Below, in pieces: positions 3,881 through 55,562 of a DNA stretch of 64,000 nucleotides. The DNA comes from Ottowia sp. (lineage in GTDB: Bacteria > Pseudomonadota > Gammaproteobacteria > Burkholderiales > Burkholderiaceae_C), in contig NZ_DAOMOQ010000014.1 of NCBI RefSeq assembly GCF_035444425.1, forward strand, positions 5,630-69,629, given 5' to 3'. Both the position numbers and the translations under genes were made by a program. The notes beneath the pieces are model-generated. The model had not been told where the DNA came from. It saw nothing but the letters and a program-made list of their open reading frames with translations, and did no database searches. The number at the start of each line of letters is the position of its first letter. The first letter of the stretch is position 1.

Positions 3881-3963
3881 GGTGGTTCTCCGGTTGATCA
3901 AGGTGGATGCGGGGAAACGAAACCGGGCTGATTATGGGTCGGCGCCGAGCCCAGCCGTCGAAC

Positions 3964-6900
3964 CTAGCCCTGCACCTGCGCCCACACCTTGTCCAGCCGC
4001 TTGATGCTCACCGGTTGCGGCGTGCGCAGCTCCTGCGCGAAGAAGCTCACGCGCAGTTCCTCCAGCAGCCAGCGCAGCTCCTGCAGACGCGCGTCCTGCT
4101 GGCCCTTGCGCTCGGCCACCAGACGCCAGAAGCGCTGGTCCTGCGTGCGCACCTCGGCCATGCGCTGGGCGTCGCGCGCCGGGTCGGCGCGCAGCTTGTC
4201 GAGCCGCAGCACGATGGCCTTGAGGTAGCGCGGGAAGTGCTGCAGCGCGGACCACGGCGTCGCAGCGAGGAAGTTCTTCGGCATCAGGCGCTGCAACTGC
4301 TCGCTCGCGTCCCGAGTGGCGTCGGCCGAGTTCCGCGTGTCCTTGATCTTGCGCGCCGCGCTGGCGTATTCGCCGAGGATCACGCCGGCCAGGCGCGCGA
4401 TCTCGTTGGCGATCAGGGTCAGGCGGGCGCGGCCTTCTTCCATGCGTTGCCTGAATTCGGCCTCGTTCATCGGCAGCGGCTCGACAAGGAAGGCGCGCTC
4501 CAGCGCGACGTCGATGATCTGCTGGCGCAGCTCTTCGGCCGTGCCGAGCGGCATGTAGGCGACCGACATCTTCTGCAAGTCAGGCACGTTCTTTTCGAGG
4601 TACTTGAGCGCGTCCCTGAGCTGCAACGCGAACAGGCGGCGCAGGCCAACGCGGTGCTTTGCCGCGGCGAGTTCGGGTTCGTCGAAAACCTCGATAGTGA
4701 CGGCGTCGCCGGCGTCGATCAGAGCCGGAAAACCGATCAGCGTCTGCCCCTTGCGGCGGATTTCCATCAGCTCGGGGAGCTCACCGAAGTCCCAAGTGGT
4801 GTGGTGGGTGTCGGCGGATGCCGTCGTGCCCTCGCTTTTCTTGATGGCTGCCTGCGCCTGGGCGGCGGGTGCGGAAGGCGCTTCTCGACCCGAACCCGCC
4901 GGGGGCGCGGCGATCTCCACCTTGGCCACTTTCAGGCCCGCCAGCGCCTGGAACGCGCCGCGCGCCTCGCCGCCCAGTTCGGCCTTCAGCGCCGCCAGGT
5001 TGCGCCCCTGCCCGCGCTGGCGGCCATGCTCGTCAACCACGCGGAAGTTCATGAACAGGTGCGCCGGCAGCATGTCGAGCTTGAAGTCGGTGCGCCTGAC
5101 ATCCAGGCCGGTGGCCTCGCGCACCAGTTTGAGCAGCGCATCGGTCAGGCTGCCGTGGCCGAAGGCTTCCGGTGTGCCCAGCACCTCGTTCAGCCGCGCC
5201 GCGCTCTCGGGCAGCGGCACGAAGCGGCTGCGCGGCCGCTGTGGCAGGCTTTTCAGCAGCGCCTGGATCTTGGGCTTCAGCATGCCCGGCACCAGCCATT
5301 CGCAGCGCGCCTCGCTGACCTGGTTCAGCACGAACAGCGGCACGGTGACGGTGAGGCCGTCCTTGGCATCGCCCGGTTCATGCAGGTAGCTGGCGGCGCA
5401 GTCGACGCCACCCAGGCGGATCATCTTCGGGAAAGCGGCGCTGGTGATGCCCGCCGCCTCGTGGCGCATCAGCTCCTCGCGCGTCAGCTGCAGCAGCTTC
5501 GGGTTCGCCTGGCTGGCTTCGCGCCACCAGCGCTCGAAGTCGCGGCCGTTGCTGATGCCGGCCGGGATCTGGCTGTCGTAGAAGGCATAGATCAGCTCGT
5601 CGTCGACCAGCACGTCCTGGCGCCGGCTCTTGTGCTCGAGTTCCTCGACCTTGGCGATCGCCCGCTGGTTCGCTTGCAGGAACGGCAGGCGGCGCGTCCA
5701 GTCGTCCGGCCACTCGCTGTTCACCAGCGCCTCGCGGATGAAGATCTCGCGCGCGGCCTGCGGGTCGACCGCGCCGTAGCTCCGGCGCCGGCCGCTGTAG
5801 ACCACCAGCCCGTACAGCGTGGCGCGCTCCAGGGCAACCACGTCCTGCGCCTTCTTTTCCCAGTGCGGCTCCAGCAACTGCTTCTTCAAGAGGTGGCCAC
5901 CGACCTCCTCCAGCCACTGCGGCTCGATGGTCGCGATGCCGCGGCCGAACAGCCGCGTGGTCTCCACCAGTTCGGCGGCGACGATCCACCTGCCGGGTCG
6001 CTTGCTCAGGTGCGCACCGGGATGGCGGTGGAACTTGATGCCGCGCGCGCCCAGGTATTCGCCGCTGGCGGCGTCGTCGCTCTCCAGCTTGTGGCCCACG
6101 TTGCCCAGCAGACCGGCGAGCAGGGACTTGTGCAACGCCTCGTAGCCAGCGGAAACATGCCCCCACGCTCCGCGCTGCGCGTCTGCGCTGCCCCCCGAGG
6201 GGGCCGAGCCCGGCTTGGGGCGGCCCGGCGCCGGGCCGCGTGCGTTTTCCATCCACCCGTGCTCGGCGACGACGGTGTGCAACTGCGTGTGGATGTCGCG
6301 CCATTCGCGCACGCGGCGCACGCTGATGAAGTTCTGGCGCAGCAGGTTCTCCCACTGACGGTTGCTGAGCTTGTGGGTCGGCTGGTCAGCGACCGCTGGC
6401 GCGGCAGCCGACCCGCCCAGCGCCTTGCGCGCTGCCTCCATCGCCAGCGCGGCACGCTGCGCTGCGGGCAACGCGACCAGGTTGGCAGACTTCCTGACTG
6501 CGCCCTTGCCCTCGGCTGCCGCCATTTCGCGCCGCGTACGGACGACTTGCCCCCCGCGCGCATCGTGCAGCCACTTCCACAGCCGCAGATAGCCCGAGAA
6601 CTCGCTCTTCTCGTCGTCGAACTTGGCGTGCGCCTGGTCGGCCTGCGCCTGTTGCTCCAGCGGCCGGTCGCGCACGTCCTGCACGCTGAGGGCGGCGGCG
6701 ATGACCAGCACCTCGCGCAGCGCGCCGCGCTCGCGCGCCGCCAGGATCATGCGCCCGACGCGCGGATCCAGCGGCAGGCGGGACAGCTCGTGGCCCAGGG
6801 CAGTGAGCGCCTGCGCCTCGTCCATCGCACCCAGCTCCTGCAGCAGTTGGATGCCGTCGGCGATGGCCCGGCCGGACGGCGCGTCGAGAAAGGGAAAATC

Positions 6901-8214
6901 CCCCACCCGCCCGCCCTCGCCGCCCAGGTGCAGGCTCTTCATGCGCAGGATCACCGCCGCCAGCGAGGAGCGCAGGATCTCCGGGTCGGTGAAGCGCGGT
7001 CGGCCGGCGAAGTCCTTCTCGTCGTACAGCCGGATGCAGATGCCGTCGCTGACACGCCCGCAGCGCCCGGCTCGCTGGTTGGCCGCGGCCTGGCTCACCG
7101 GCTCGACCAGCAGCTGCTCCACCTTGCTGCGGTAGCTGTAGCGCTTGACGCGCGCCGTGCCCGGGTCGATGACGTACTTGATGCCCGGCACCGTGAGCGA
7201 GGTCTCGGCCACGTTGGTGGCGATGACGATGCGCGGTGCGCCGTGGGTGTCGAACACGCGGTCCTGCTCGGCCTGGCTCAGGCGCGCGAACAGGGGCAGC
7301 ACTTCGGCGCCGCGCGTCAGCGGGCTGCGCGCCAGGTGGCCGCGCAGATGCTCGGCGGCGTCGCGGATCTCGCGTTCGCCCGGCAGGAAGATCAGGATGT
7401 CACCGGCAGGACGACCCGTCCATACTTCATCCACCGCCTCGGCGATGGCGTCGTTCAGGTCGTGATCGCGGCTTTCCTCGAACGGCCGCCAGCGCTGCTC
7501 GACCGGGTACATGCGCCCCGACACCAGCAGGACCGGTGCTGGAACGAGGCCCCCACGCTCCACGGCTTCGCCTGTTGCGCTGCCCCCCGAGGGGGCTGCC
7601 CCGCCTTGGGGCGGCCCGGCGGCGGGGCGCCTCGGCATCGCGAAGTGCTGCGCGAAGCGGTCGGCGTCGATGGTGGCCGAGGTCACGATCAGCTTCAGGT
7701 CCGGTCGCCTGGGCAGGATCTGCTTCAGGTAGCCAAGCAGGAAGTCGATGTTCAGGCTGCGCTCGTGCGCCTCGTCGATGATCAGCGTGTCGTAGTTCTT
7801 CAGCAGCGGATCGGTCTGCGTTTCGGCCAGCAGGATGCCGTCGGTCATCAGCTTGATGCTGGCGCCGGCCGACAGGCGGTCGTTGAAGCGCACCTTGTAG
7901 CCGACCACTTCGCCCAGCGGCGTCTTCAGCTCGTCCGCGATGCGCCGGGCCACGCTGGTGGCGGCGATGCGGCGCGGCTGCGTGTGGCCGATCAGCCGGC
8001 CGCGCTGCCCTGGCGGGGCGTTCATGCGCCCGCGCCCCATGGCCAGTGCGATCTTGGGCAGTTGCGTGGTCTTGCCCGAGCCGGTCTCGCCGCAGACCAC
8101 CACCACCTGGTGGCTGCGCAGCGCCGCCTCGATATCGGCGCGGCGCGCCGATACGGGCAGGTCGGGGGGAAACTCGATCGTCGGCTGGAGCGCGCCGGAA
8201 GCTGGCTGGGACAT
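3964..8214 (-). CDS. hrpA: ATP-dependent RNA helicase HrpA (about 1416 aa) carrying two in-frame repeat-derived insertions
   Basis: GETGSGKTTQLP, HTQPRRIAA, DEAHERS, SAT, TNVAETSLT, QRAGRCGR and the C-terminal WLLEELRVSFFAQ...KRL tail; ATG at 8214. Confidence 0.95.
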   Translation of the reverse strand: MSQPASGALQPTIEFPPDLPVSARRADIEAALRSHQVVVVCGETGSGKTTQLPKIALAMGRGRMNAPPGQRGRLIGHTQPRRIAATSVARRIADELKTPLGEVVGYKVRFNDRLSAGASIKLMTDGILLAETQTDPLLKNYDTLIIDEAHERSLNIDFLLGYLKQILPRRPDLKLIVTSATIDADRFAQHFAMPRRPAAGPPQGGAAPSGGSATGEAVERGGLVPAPVLLVSGRMYPVEQRWRPFEESRDHDLNDAIAEAVDEVWTGRPAGDILIFLPGEREIRDAAEHLRGHLARSPLTRGAEVLPLFARLSQAEQDRVFDTHGAPRIVIATNVAETSLTVPGIKYVIDPGTARVKRYSYRSKVEQLLVEPVSQAAANQRAGRCGRVSDGICIRLYDEKDFAGRPRFTDPEILRSSLAAVILRMKSLHLGGEGGRVGDFPFLDAPSGRAIADGIQLLQELGAMDEAQALTALGHELSRLPLDPRVGRMILAARERGALREVLVIAAALSVQDVRDRPLEQQAQADQAHAKFDDEKSEFSGYLRLWKWLHDARGGQVVRTRREMAAAEGKGAVRKSANLVALPAAQRAALAMEAARKALGGSAAAPAVADQPTHKLSNRQWENLLRQNFISVRRVREWRDIHTQLHTVVAEHGWMENARGPAPGRPKPGSAPSGGSADAQRGAWGHVSAGYEALHKSLLAGLLGNVGHKLESDDAASGEYLGARGIKFHRHPGAHLSKRPGRWIVAAELVETTRLFGRGIATIEPQWLEEVGGHLLKKQLLEPHWEKKAQDVVALERATLYGLVVYSGRRRSYGAVDPQAAREIFIREALVNSEWPDDWTRRLPFLQANQRAIAKVEELEHKSRRQDVLVDDELIYAFYDSQIPAGISNGRDFERWWREASQANPKLLQLTREELMRHEAAGITSAAFPKMIRLGGVDCAASYLHEPGDAKDGLTVTVPLFVLNQVSEARCEWLVPGMLKPKIQALLKSLPQRPRSRFVPLPESAARLNEVLGTPEAFGHGSLTDALLKLVREATGLDVRRTDFKLDMLPAHLFMNFRVVDEHGRQRGQGRNLAALKAELGGEARGAFQALAGLKVAKVEIAAPPAGSGREAPSAPAAQAQAAIKKSEGTTASADTHHTTWDFGELPELMEIRRKGQTLIGFPALIDAGDAVTIEVFDEPELAAAKHRVGLRRLFALQLRDALKYLEKNVPDLQKMSVAYMPLGTAEELRQQIIDVALERAFLVEPLPMNEAEFRQRMEEGRARLTLIANEIARLAGVILGEYASAARKIKDTRNSADATRDASEQLQRLMPKNFLAATPWSALQHFPRYLKAIVLRLDKLRADPARDAQRMAEVRTQDQRFWRLVAERKGQQDARLQELRWLLEELRVSFFAQELRTPQPVSIKRLDKVWAQVQG
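6160..6230. repeat. Dispersed GC-rich repeat, copy A, in frame within hrpA
   Basis: Blocks CCCCCACGCTCC (6160-6171), TGCGCTGCCCCCCGAGGGGGC (6184-6204) and CTTGGGGCGGCCCGGCG (6214-6230) are identical to those at 7550-7621. Confidence 0.9.
7550..7621. repeat. Dispersed GC-rich repeat, copy B, in frame within hrpA
   Basis: The same three blocks at 7550-7561, 7576-7596 and 7605-7621, with different spacers. Confidence 0.9.
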
Positions 8215-8425
8215 GAAGGCCCCGATTATCCCAACGCGCCGGCAGCGGTGCCGCCCGCCTGCCCCGCCCCGCCCCGCCATTGACCCAATCGGGATTGCGT
8301 GATTCCGCCCGGGGGCGCTAAGCCGGTAGACTCGTGGTTCCCAGCCAGGCCGGCCGCGCGCCATGGCGCTGCTCTTTCATCAGCGTGCCGATGCCTGTTT
8401 TCTGAATCGATTGAATGAGAGGGAC

Positions 8426-53404: not shown

Positions 53405-53511
53405 TCACCCCCCTGCGCCGCTGACGCGGCTTCCCCCCTCTCTGACGCGCCTTCGGCGCTTGGAGGGGGGACGGCACCTGAGGCCCGGCGGAGCCGGTTC
53501 CTCGGTGCCCC
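53405..53511. repeat. Structured dispersed repeat, copy 1, directly after the C23O stop codon
   Basis: Three hairpins; aligns with 55457-55562. Confidence 0.85.
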
Positions 53512-55456: not shown

Positions 55457-55562
55457 TCTCCCCCCTGCGCCGCTGCGCGGCTTCCCCCCTCCGTTGCGCG
55501 TCTTCGACGCTTCGAGGGGGACGCCGCCTGTGGCCCGGCATAGCCGGTTCCACGGCTGCCCT
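55457..55562. repeat. Structured dispersed repeat, copy 2, directly after the dmpC stop codon
   Basis: Aligns with 53405-53511, with compensatory substitutions. Confidence 0.85.

What the first reader, a model, noticed from the sequence alone, without database searches (positions are those of the whole stretch)
6160..7621. The same dispersed repeat has inserted twice, in frame, inside hrpA
Seen: two elements of about 71-72 bp (6160-6230, 7550-7621) share three identical blocks (12, 21 and 17 nt), lie in the same orientation and have different spacers. Both are translated as inserts: RRPAAGPPQGGAAPSGGSATGEAVERGG, between the SAT motif and the next helicase segment, and RGPAPGRPKPGSAPSGGSADAQRGAWG. 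The flanking blocks are read in different frames in the two copies (GPPQG versus GRPKP; VERG versus GAWG), so conservation is at the nucleotide level. Inference: a selfish palindromic element that colonises protein loops, comparable to Rickettsia palindromic elements, and generates new peptide sequence in a conserved helicase.
Basis: partly seen in the sequence, partly recalled or inferred. Interest (0 to 1): 0.72.

Follow-up and report, generated by a model that had tools for sequence, protein, structure and literature searches.

The report
Hairpin repeat translated twice inside hrpA
Two copies of an 81-87-base hairpin-forming DNA repeat, found across the Comamonadaceae, sit in frame inside the hrpA RNA-helicase gene and are read as extra protein loops; this kind of behaviour is known from Rickettsia, but this repeat family appears undescribed and occurs in bacteria that can be grown and engineered.

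Summary
Window 6151-6237 and 7540-7628 hold two same-orientation copies of one repeat inside hrpA (3964-8214, minus strand). They add 28 and 27 residues. Most same-genus HrpA orthologues and E. coli HrpA have short linkers of 2-6 residues at both points.

The repeat is dispersed, with 42 copies in this 3.3 Mb genome. Twenty-five copies lie in frame in 17 genuine genes, including valS, two uvrA genes, recJ and an lnt-like gene. A strict pattern finds the repeat in 119 of 201 sampled genera of the family.

The unit is a short A-rich leader, three invariant blocks and three hairpins, two of which have covarying stems. It is 81-87 nt long and tandem periods are multiples of three. In genes, only one reading frame per orientation is normally used, the frame with the fewest Arg, Cys and Trp codons.

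I found no target duplication and no Rfam match. I found no link to Y1/RAYT or DUF559 genes.

Resident copies are better conserved than neighbouring codons. Even so, their presence is scattered among species, and at site 1 I saw no clearly decayed copy.

Verdict: an apparently undescribed member of the RPE / intragenic-REP kind. How it moves is unknown.

The parts
3964..8214 (-). hrpA, a DEAH/RHA ATP-dependent RNA helicase of 1416 aa, host of both inserts
   Evidence: Translation. PDB phmmer matches E. coli HrpA (9ggr, 6zww) at E = 0 over five collinear stretches.
7540..7628 (+). Repeat copy B (element orientation +, read from the minus strand). It encodes about residues 196-225. The extra segment M193-V224 replaces a 4-6-residue linker between the SAT motif/RecA1 end and the first RecA2 strand; net +81 nt.
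   Evidence: It falls between E. coli HrpA residues 241 and 244.
6151..6237 (+). Repeat copy A (element orientation +, read from the minus strand). The extra segment R659-S688 replaces 2-3 residues; net +84 nt.
   Evidence: It falls between E. coli HrpA residues 614 and 617.
6151..6159 (+). A-rich leader of copy A (GGAAACATG). The equivalent in copy B is 7540-7548 (TGGAACGAG).
   Evidence: Anchored comparison of 38 copies shows G-R-A-A-C enrichment at -10 to -5. The leader is absent from empty sites.
6159..6171 (+). Invariant block 1, GCCCCCACGCTCC (copy B: 7549-7561)
   Evidence: column conservation about 0.9-1.0.
6172..6183 (+). Hairpin 1, a variable 4-5 bp stem around a T(G/T)C loop (copy B: about 7562-7575)
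   Evidence: Covariation in 152 distinct copies. For example, pair 16-22 is G-C in 80 and A-T in 58; pair 14-25 is C-G in 92 and T-A in 40.
6184..6204 (+). Invariant block 2 with the central hairpin, TGCGCTG-CCCCCC-GAG-GGGGC. It is read as APSGGSA. Copy B: 7576-7596.
6208..6236 (+). Hairpin 3: variable arms GCCCGGC/GCCGGGC around the conserved 15-nt loop TTGGGGCGGCCCGGC. Copy B: 7598-7628, with arms GCCCCGCC/GGCGGGGC.
   Evidence: Arms pair over 5.3 consecutive bp on average, against 2.2 with shuffled partners; there are 45 different arm sequences.

Best explanation
The two segments are copies of a dispersed, non-coding, hairpin-forming repeat family that is widespread in the Comamonadaceae. 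The unit is 81-87 nt. It consists of a short A-rich leader, block GCCCCCACGCT, a covarying hairpin, block GCTGCCCCCCGAGGGGGC, and a second covarying hairpin around the loop TTGGGRCGGCCCGGC. Copies entered hrpA at two points where the protein has only short inter-domain linkers, and they are translated as Gly/Ala/Pro/Ser-rich loops.

Shown here: the family exists. It sits in many real genes in frame. Most orthologues lack the inserts. Different species carry copies at four different hrpA sites. Unit length is a multiple of three. Only two of the six reading frames are normally found in genes.

Inferred: the element moves, or moved, as DNA through a hairpin-dependent process carried out in trans by an unidentified enzyme. 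Copies persist only where length (3n), absence of stop codons and a harmless peptide allow. It works like Rickettsia palindromic elements and intragenic REPs. Its means of spread and loss is not known.
For: 1. The two copies are confirmed, and most orthologues are empty at both sites.
2. nhmmer finds 42 copies in the genome. Twenty-five lie in long open frames with coding GC1/2/3 patterns on both sides.
3. The 17 host genes have Pfam domains on both sides of, or spanning, the insert. They are hrpA, valS, uvrA, a 2174-aa uvrA-like gene, recJ, an lnt-like gene, a P-type ATPase and others.
4. Copies occur in both orientations and in places not classed as in-frame coding, with the outer blocks in varying frames. 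Conservation is therefore at the DNA level.
5. Frame filter. About 40 of 42 opposite-orientation copies read block 2 as APxGGS, and 29 of 32 same-orientation copies read it as ALPPEG. These two frames have about 1.7 Arg and no more than 0.5 Cys per copy, against 3.9-5.5 Arg in the unused frames, and they contain the fewest stops.
6. Tandem periods are 84 or 87 nt; 44 of 50 are multiples of three.
7. Both variable stems covary.
8. Four different hrpA sites are occupied in different species of the genus.
9. Named genome records holding the repeat include Polaromonas, Rhodoferax, Ramlibacter, Hydrogenophaga, Ottowia, Xenophilus, Variovorax, Curvibacter, Acidovorax and Caenimonas. The pattern matches 161 of 301 genomes and 119 of 201 genera of the GTDB family, and 0 of 12 genomes sampled from other families of the order.
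10. Both inserts fall where E. coli HrpA has two residues between aligned blocks.
Against: - No mobilising enzyme was found. The one RAYT with flanking REPs has its own GTAG-type REPs. Copy number does not track Y1 or DUF559 genes. No gene recurs next to copies.
- No target-site duplication or clear terminal inverted repeats were seen in four filled/empty comparisons, so transposition in the usual sense is not demonstrated.
- Resident copies are more conserved than third codon positions, and their invariant blocks are as conserved as first and second positions. Passive junk does not predict this.
- Predicted folding energies are no better than those of shuffled sequence, with z from +0.1 to -0.7. 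The case for structure rests on covariation alone.
- Translation is inferred from frame constraints.
- 'In-frame genic' was called from open frames plus GC3 patterns, not from an annotation. It was checked with Pfam for the 17 host genes only.
Confidence: 0.8

Rival explanations
1. The repeat is a functional nucleic-acid element kept by the host, for example a protein-binding or structure-forming DNA site or an mRNA hairpin, and happens to be embedded in coding sequence (dual use). It would not be mere selfish DNA. This reading is compatible with an origin by insertion.
For: At orthologous hrpA sites retrieved through protein flanks, the invariant blocks are 95%, 99% and 89% identical across 8, 5 and 5 species. 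Third codon positions of the flanks are 64-73% identical and first/second positions mostly about 88-96%. The valS insert is 85-95% identical against 68-77% for third positions. Stem 3 of the valS copy changes by paired substitutions between species. Wobble-type mispairs in hairpin 1 are about equal on the two strands, which fits a DNA-level or strand-symmetric role. The family persists across at least 119 genera.
Against: Presence at a given site is scattered among closely related species, so no single copy is indispensable. Copy number ranges from 0 to more than 70 per genome within the family. Decayed copies would escape the HMM, which inflates apparent conservation. Copy-to-copy replacement does occur, as in the G000 site-1 copy, and could homogenise copies without any function.
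Confidence: 0.25
2. The element is an ordinary REP mobilised by a RAYT (Y1/HUH) transposase, that is, a member of the GTAG/CGTC REP superfamilies.
For: The element is built of hairpins, shows no target duplication, and leaves clean empty sites. All of these fit single-strand 'peel and paste' chemistry (established knowledge of IS200/IS605). The genome encodes two Y1-type proteins.
Against: GTAG/CTAC occurs in only about 7% of copies and CGTC/GACG in about 23%, so neither is a conserved tag. The RAYT gene on contig C8 is flanked by a different REP, GTGGGAGCGGCGGCAGCCGCGAAC. The element HMM has no hit in four sampled Y1 loci of relatives. The rank correlation between copy number and Y1 genes in 18 genomes of the genus is -0.004. 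Element-rich G004 (only 80% complete) has no Y1 hit and G005 only a sub-threshold one.
Confidence: 0.1
3. The similarity reflects selection for a useful peptide module, a Gly/Ser/Pro linker acquired repeatedly at the protein level.
For: The central block is almost always read as APSGGSA or ALPPEG.
Against: The same DNA is read on both strands, giving unrelated peptides. The outer blocks are read in two or three frames. Seventeen of the 42 copies in this genome were not classed as in-frame coding. Third codon positions inside the blocks are invariant.
Confidence: 0.03
4. The two copies arose by local duplication within hrpA, or are an assembly artefact.
For: None beyond the two copies lying in one gene.
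Against: Forty other copies lie on 26 other contigs. The two hrpA copies belong to different variants of the variable parts. The same two sites are filled in the single-contig genome G017 and in other species.
Confidence: 0.01

Closest known systems
Rickettsia palindromic elements (RPE; Ogata et al. 2000, as summarised in PMC10969869 and PMC3733652)
   Same: Both are dispersed hairpin-forming repeats without coding capacity of their own. In both, many copies are inserted in frame in unrelated housekeeping genes and read as extra peptides that leave the proteins plausibly functional. In both, a large share of copies is intragenic. No dedicated transposase is known for either.
   Different: The hosts differ: free-living, 60-70% GC Betaproteobacteria rather than AT-rich obligate intracellular Alphaproteobacteria. 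The unit is shorter, 81-87 nt against about 100-150 (figure from PMC10969869). It has a fixed order of three different hairpins with invariant loops and blocks and covarying stems. The sequences are unrelated as far as can be judged; I had no RPE sequences to compare.
Intragenic GTAG- and CGTC-tagged REPs (Di Nocera, De Gregorio, Rocco 2013, PMC3733652)
   Same: REP-type palindromes found inside genes as inserts of 20-30 amino acids, often twice in one gene. The host set is strikingly similar: uvrA (both paralogues in Opitutus terrae), RNA helicases, tRNA synthetases and recombination/repair genes. In this genome the hosts include both uvrA genes, recJ, hrpA and valS.
   Different: There is no conserved GTAG or CGTC tag. 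The unit is a three-hairpin composite rather than a single 20-40 bp stem-loop or a head-to-head dimer. Arrays are direct tandems with 84 or 87 nt periods.
REP/REPIN-RAYT systems
   Same: GC-rich hairpin repeats present in tens of copies per genome. This genome does contain a classical REPtron.
   Different: That REPtron carries a different repeat. This element neither flanks Y1 genes nor co-varies with them.
MITEs with intragenic copies (ERIC/RU elements, Correia; PMC2759123, PMC10969869)
   Same: Small non-autonomous repeats that sometimes fuse in frame with host ORFs.
   Different: MITEs are defined by terminal inverted repeats and target-site duplications. Neither is evident here.

Membership tests
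RPE-like / intragenic palindromic repeats (functional class) | Dispersed, multi-copy, hairpin-forming, non-coding repeat | tested here: met
   There are 42 copies in the genome. Stems covary.
RPE-like / intragenic palindromic repeats (functional class) | Copies inserted in frame in genes whose orthologues lack them | tested here: met
   hrpA. valS: filled in 5 and empty in about 39 of 44 matched genomes. Seventeen host genes were confirmed by Pfam.
RPE-like / intragenic palindromic repeats (functional class) | Inserts lie in permissive loops or linkers of the protein | tested here: inconclusive
   By sequence alignment, both inserts fall where E. coli HrpA has two residues between aligned blocks. 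No 3-D model was made.
Rickettsia RPE-1 to RPE-10 (sequence families) | Sequence similarity to a described RPE family | not tested
   No RPE sequences were available in the tools. Host lineage and base composition make membership unlikely.
GTAG / CGTC REP superfamilies | Conserved GTAG or CGTC tetranucleotide at one end of the palindrome | tested here: not met
   Of 197 copies, GTAG occurs in 14, CTAC in 15, CGTC in 48 and GACG in 44. None sits at a fixed position.
GTAG / CGTC REP superfamilies | Unit is a single 20-40 bp stem-loop, commonly in inverted dimers | tested here: not met
   The unit has three different hairpins in a fixed order. Arrays are direct tandems of 84 or 87 nt.
REPtron (REP + RAYT) | Copies of the repeat flank the RAYT gene | tested here: not met
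   The C8 RAYT is flanked by GTGGGAGCGGCGGCAGCCGCGAAC-type REPs and the C4 Y1 gene by none. The HMM finds nothing in four sampled Y1 loci of relatives.
REPtron (REP + RAYT) | Repeat abundance goes with presence of the transposase | tested here: not met
   Spearman rho is -0.004 over 18 genomes of the genus.
MITE | Terminal inverted repeats | tested here: inconclusive
   Read directly from the sequence, there is only a 10-of-12 imperfect match between the 5' block (GGCCCCCACG) and the complement of loop 3 (GGCCGCCCCAAG). That match is internal, not terminal.
MITE | Target-site duplication | tested here: not met
   None was seen at four hrpA sites compared with empty alleles.
Rfam structured RNA families | Match to a curated covariance model | tested here: not met
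   cmscan of window 5900-7900 at E up to 1 gave no hits.
Hairpin repeats bracketing DUF559 nuclease genes (lead from earlier notes of this scan) | Repeat flanks a DUF559 gene, or co-occurs with one | tested here: not met
   DUF559 is absent from G000, G017, G003, G004, G005 and G011, all of which are rich in the element. There are no HMM hits in 16 DUF559 loci, and rho is -0.26.

The most novel reading that the evidence does not exclude
The element is more than tolerated junk. It may be an undescribed, family-wide 'gene-compatible' element: its unit is a whole number of codons, it has two harmless reading frames, and its resident copies inside essential genes are held under nucleotide-level constraint, with blocks as conserved as first and second codon positions and stems changing by paired substitutions. 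At the same time, copies appear and vanish cleanly between sister species. That combination would point either to a host-level DNA or RNA function written over coding sequence, or to an unknown insertion/excision machinery that leaves no footprint and is not of the RAYT or DUF559 type.
Probability: 0.3. Interest if true: 0.72.

Novelty: new member of a known kind. Interest (0 to 1): 0.52.

Why it matters
In-frame palindromic repeats are mostly discussed as a curiosity of Rickettsia and Wolbachia, which cannot be manipulated easily. This family behaves the same way in free-living, culturable bacteria such as Acidovorax, Variovorax, Polaromonas and Hydrogenophaga. In this genome about 60% of copies sit inside real genes, including valS, uvrA and recJ.

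That makes several old questions testable:
- How such repeats move.
- Whether the added loops change protein function.
- Whether the DNA or RNA hairpins are themselves under selection.

There is also a practical side. These inserts add 27-29-residue low-complexity loops to conserved proteins and break assemblies at repeat arrays (one contig here, C11, ends within a pair of copies). Both can mislead annotation and alignment-based phylogeny in this family.

Tried and rejected
- **Local duplication.** Rejected: 40 other copies exist, and the two hrpA copies are of different variants.
- **Rfam.** No match.
- **Thermodynamic signal.** MFE z-scores run from +0.12 to -0.66, no better than shuffles. 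Structure is supported only by covariation.
- **RAYT/Y1 as partner.** The flanks of both Y1 genes were read. One has its own GTAG-type REPs and the other has none. There is no correlation with copy number.
- **DUF559 nuclease as partner** (a lead from earlier notes). Absent from element-rich genomes, and no copies lie in 16 DUF559 loci.
- **A recurrent neighbouring gene.** All-against-all comparison of ORFs in 119 loci from other genomes gave only generic ABC-ATPase paralogues.
- **Variable stems copied from, or complementary to, the target.** This looked possible at hrpA site 3. Over 79 copies, the longest shared word exceeds shuffled pairings by only about 0.3 nt, which is explicable by genome composition. 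Not supported.
- **Lateral spread of filled alleles together with their flanks.** Carriers do not cluster on trees of the 300-nt flanks, although these short trees have low power.
- **Vertical descent versus replacement.** Similarity of variable columns between G000 and G017 orthologous copies is too close to the background (0.48-0.80 against 0.50 +/- 0.13) to decide in general.
- **Literature.** A full-text search for the core sequence found no paper, and searches on Comamonadaceae genera with REP terms found nothing relevant.

Full report
**Observation.** hrpA occupies window 3964-8214 on the minus strand and encodes 1416 aa. Its best PDB relatives are E. coli HrpA structures, at E = 0. Aligning window 6140-6260 with 7530-7650 gives 82% identity. 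There are three identical blocks of 12-13, 21 and 17 nt in the same orientation, and the spacers differ by +2 and -1 nt. The blocks recur 11-22 times in the 3.33 Mb, 68.6% GC genome.

**Orthologue test.** tblastn of the two regions against hrpA loci of relatives shows that nearly all same-genus orthologues have a 4-6-residue linker (DARGN, DAQGQ, SKQG and similar) where this protein has M193-V224. They have 2-3 residues (T-Q-P) where it has R659-S688. DNA alignments give net inserts of +81 and +84 nt. In E. coli HrpA the aligned blocks are separated by two residues at each point, 241/244 and 614/617. From my recollection of the HrpA structure papers, these points are the RecA1/RecA2 junction and the junction before the OB domain. 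I did not model this.

**Census in this genome.** An HMM built from the two copies and then rebuilt finds 42 copies at E below 0.01, several as direct tandem pairs. For each copy I asked whether one stop-free frame runs through it with a coding GC1/GC2/GC3 pattern on both sides. Twenty-five copies pass, in 17 ORFs. Pfam confirms all 17 as real genes, with domains on both sides of the insert or spanning it. The hosts are:
- HrpA (2 copies)
- valyl-tRNA synthetase
- UvrA
- a 2174-aa double-UvrA-like protein (3 copies, in both orientations)
- RecJ
- a carbon-nitrogen hydrolase, lnt-like (2 copies)
- a heavy-metal P-type ATPase
- a CobB/CobQ-like amidotransferase (2 copies)
- an acyl-CoA synthetase (2 copies)
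- a FemAB-like protein (2 copies)
- an FtsX permease
- a molybdopterin oxidoreductase
- nitronate monooxygenase
- an APH kinase
- a histidine phosphatase
- a MoCF-domain protein
- a fatty-acid hydroxylase (2 copies)

The other 17 copies are intergenic, at gene ends, or undetermined.

**Anatomy.** The unit has five parts:
- a 7-9 nt A-rich leader, consensus GRAAC-N2-3
- block GCCCCCACGCT
- hairpin 1, a 5-bp stem with one bulge around a T(G/T)C loop
- block GCTGCCCCCCGAGGGGGC, which is itself a C5-6/G5 hairpin with a variable 2-3 nt loop
- hairpin 3, with arms of about 5-9 bp around the conserved 15-nt loop TTGGGRCGGCCCGGC

Both variable stems covary. In 152 distinct copies, hairpin-1 pairs switch between G-C, C-G, A-T and T-A, with 82-99% of copies paired at each position. 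Hairpin-3 arms pair over 5.3 consecutive bp on average, against 2.2 with shuffled partners (maximum of 200 shuffles 2.6), and there are 45 different arm sequences. Wobble-type mispairs in hairpin 1 are about equally frequent on the two strands, which does not favour a single transcribed strand. Folding energies are not better than shuffles. Central-block-to-central-block periods in tandem arrays are 84 or 87 nt. Forty-four of 50 are multiples of three, including 24 of 27 arrays not classed as in-frame genic. Inserts measured against empty sites are 81, 84, 81 and 81-87 nt.

**Reading frames.** In genes, block 2 is read in essentially one frame per orientation. When the gene runs opposite to the model it reads APxGGS. 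This holds for all well-preserved cases: 17 of 19 here, 13 of 13 in other genera, 8 of 8 in G017 and 2 of 2 in G014. The two unclear cases are degenerate copies. When the gene runs co-directionally it reads (A/S)LPPEG, in 29 of 32 cases. Stop codons do not explain this, because most copies are open in every frame. The two used frames have the fewest Arg (about 1.7 per copy against 3.9-5.5), few Cys and Trp, the most Gly/Ala/Ser/Pro, and the fewest stops. The outer blocks are read in two or three frames. I take this as a filter acting on the peptide, which in turn implies that the inserts are translated.

**Distribution.** An exact-pattern scan of species-representative genomes hit records named Polaromonas, Rhodoferax, Ramlibacter, Hydrogenophaga, Ottowia, Xenophilus, Variovorax, Curvibacter, Acidovorax and Caenimonas, plus a few MAG records with odd organism labels. 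A looser pattern matches 161 of 301 genomes and 119 of 201 genera of the window's GTDB family, with up to 76 matches per genome. The reversed-pattern control gave 0 everywhere. Twelve genomes from other families of the order also gave 0. The in-frame share varies:
- about 60% here
- 17 of 31 sampled copies, plus three more in hrpA, in G017
- 5 of 25 in G014
- 25 of 149 in the multi-genus sample

. Most genomes therefore hold the element mainly outside in-frame genic positions, while this lineage holds it mainly inside genes.

**Turnover in hrpA.** Across 30 species of the genus, four hrpA sites are occupied:
- site 1 (residues 192/226) in 8 species
- site 2 (656/689) in 5
- site 3 (264/271) in 2
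- site 4 (553/560, the other orientation) in 4, plus G004

Carriers of a given site share site-specific variable sequence, so the copies at a site look homologous. One exception is instructive. At site 1, G000 alone carries a different hairpin-1/stem-3 variant, and it is the variant most common elsewhere in G000. This suggests copy-to-copy replacement.

Carriers are nevertheless scattered on the hrpA core tree like random labels: 7 changes for 8 carriers, and 5 for 5. The AU test rejects a single clade at p about 1.4e-5. Carriers do not cluster on trees of the adjacent 300 nt either, though those trees have low power. At site 1 I saw only intact copies or short linkers. I saw no target-site duplication at any of the four sites.

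**Conservation in place.** Using copies retrieved through flanking protein similarity rather than through the repeat:

| hrpA site | Species | Invariant blocks | Other element columns | Third codon positions of flanks |
|---|---|---|---|---|
| 1 | 8 | 95% | 84% | 70% |
| 2 | 5 | 99% | 80% | 73% |
| 4 | 5 | 89% | 85% | 64% |

First and second codon positions of the flanks are mostly about 88-96% identical. The valS insert is present in 5 of 44 matched genomes. It is 85-95% identical between species, against 68-77% for third positions, and its stem 3 differs by paired substitutions: GACCCCGCC/GGCGGGGTC, GATCCCGCC/GGCGGGATC and GGCCCCGCC/GGCGGGGCC. One caveat applies: copies decayed beyond HMM recognition would be scored as absent, so these figures are upper bounds. 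Even so, passive decay does not fit.

**Search for a partner.** There is no Rfam family. Two Y1/HUH genes exist. One is a RAYT flanked by its own GTAG-type REPs, and the other has no flanking repeats. Copy number does not correlate with Y1 or DUF559 genes. The element is absent from the four Y1 and 16 DUF559 loci sampled from relatives. DUF559 is missing from this and other element-rich genomes. No gene recurs beside copies in 119 loci. Variable arms are not derived from the target.

**Comparison with what is known.** A 2024 review of MITEs still cites RPEs as the extreme case of in-frame insertion (PMC10969869). Di Nocera et al. 2013 (PMC3733652) described GTAG- and CGTC-tagged REPs inside genes in several species, often twice per gene. 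They were enriched in uvrA, helicases, tRNA synthetases and recombination genes, which is the same host profile seen here. The present element lacks those tags and that unit structure. It therefore works like these elements but is not a member of those families. I found no paper containing its sequence. Earlier notes of this scan show the class recurring in other phyla.

**Mechanism I commit to.** This is a non-autonomous, hairpin-dependent DNA element that is inserted, and probably removed, without target duplication by a trans-acting activity not yet identified (inference, probability about 0.6). Its length of 28-29 codons and its two benign frames let copies survive inside genes at linkers, where they are translated (inference from frame statistics, about 0.85). 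Which copies persist is set by selection on the host protein. The extra conservation of resident copies is unexplained. Host-level function, copy-to-copy correction and detection bias are the candidates.

**Limits.** Organism names of the genus are hidden. Gene calls rest on open frames and GC3. No transcript, read or protein data were available.

Noticed in passing
genome contig C8:83113-83394 and flanks (outside the window): A classical REPtron. A roughly 150-aa RAYT-type Y1 transposase is flanked on both sides by inverted GT(A/G)GGAGCGGCGG(A/C)AGCCGCGAA(C/T) REPs. This repeat family is different from the one studied here.
   Followed up: partly
L004 (G012) and L029 (G016), hrpA region corresponding to residues about 600-614: A second, unrelated palindromic repeat (…CCCTCTCCCGC…GCGGGAGAGGG…, read as …PSPRGGGS…LPAPGEGGGEG) is also inserted in frame in hrpA of these relatives. 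G002 (L013) has an extra segment of about 90 residues made of other repeats at site 2. The hrpA linkers of this genus collect several repeat families.
   Followed up: no
window 6370-6560 (HrpA residues 552-614): This genus has a roughly 60-residue Ala/Arg-rich segment where E. coli HrpA has three residues (568-570). It is lineage-specific, variable in length, and contains insertion site 4.
   Followed up: partly
hrpA site 1, empty alleles (L003, L004, L007-L012 and others): Empty alleles in this genus carry 4-6-residue linkers (DARGN, DPQGK, SKQG, EGRTG), whereas other families have 1-2 residues. Some resemble pieces of the element's peptide (GPPQG, ERGG). They could be scars of old imprecise deletions rather than never-occupied sites.
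   Followed up: no
window 3907-8283, plus strand: A 1458-codon open frame runs antisense to hrpA. Its GC pattern (position 1 highest) marks it as a shadow frame typical of high-GC DNA, not a gene.
   Followed up: partly
window 53405-53511 and 55457-55562: The roughly 105-bp stop-codon-anchored repeat reported in another note on this window is not a member of this family. The element HMM hits contig C14 only at the two hrpA copies.
   Followed up: partly
genome contig C11:1-155: A contig ends inside a tandem pair of the element, so arrays of this repeat break the assembly. The genome-wide copy count is therefore a lower bound.
   Followed up: no
genome contig C20:6231-12752 (minus strand): A 2174-codon open frame with duplicated UvrA domains carries three copies of the element. 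Two are in tandem in one orientation and one is in the other orientation.
   Followed up: partly
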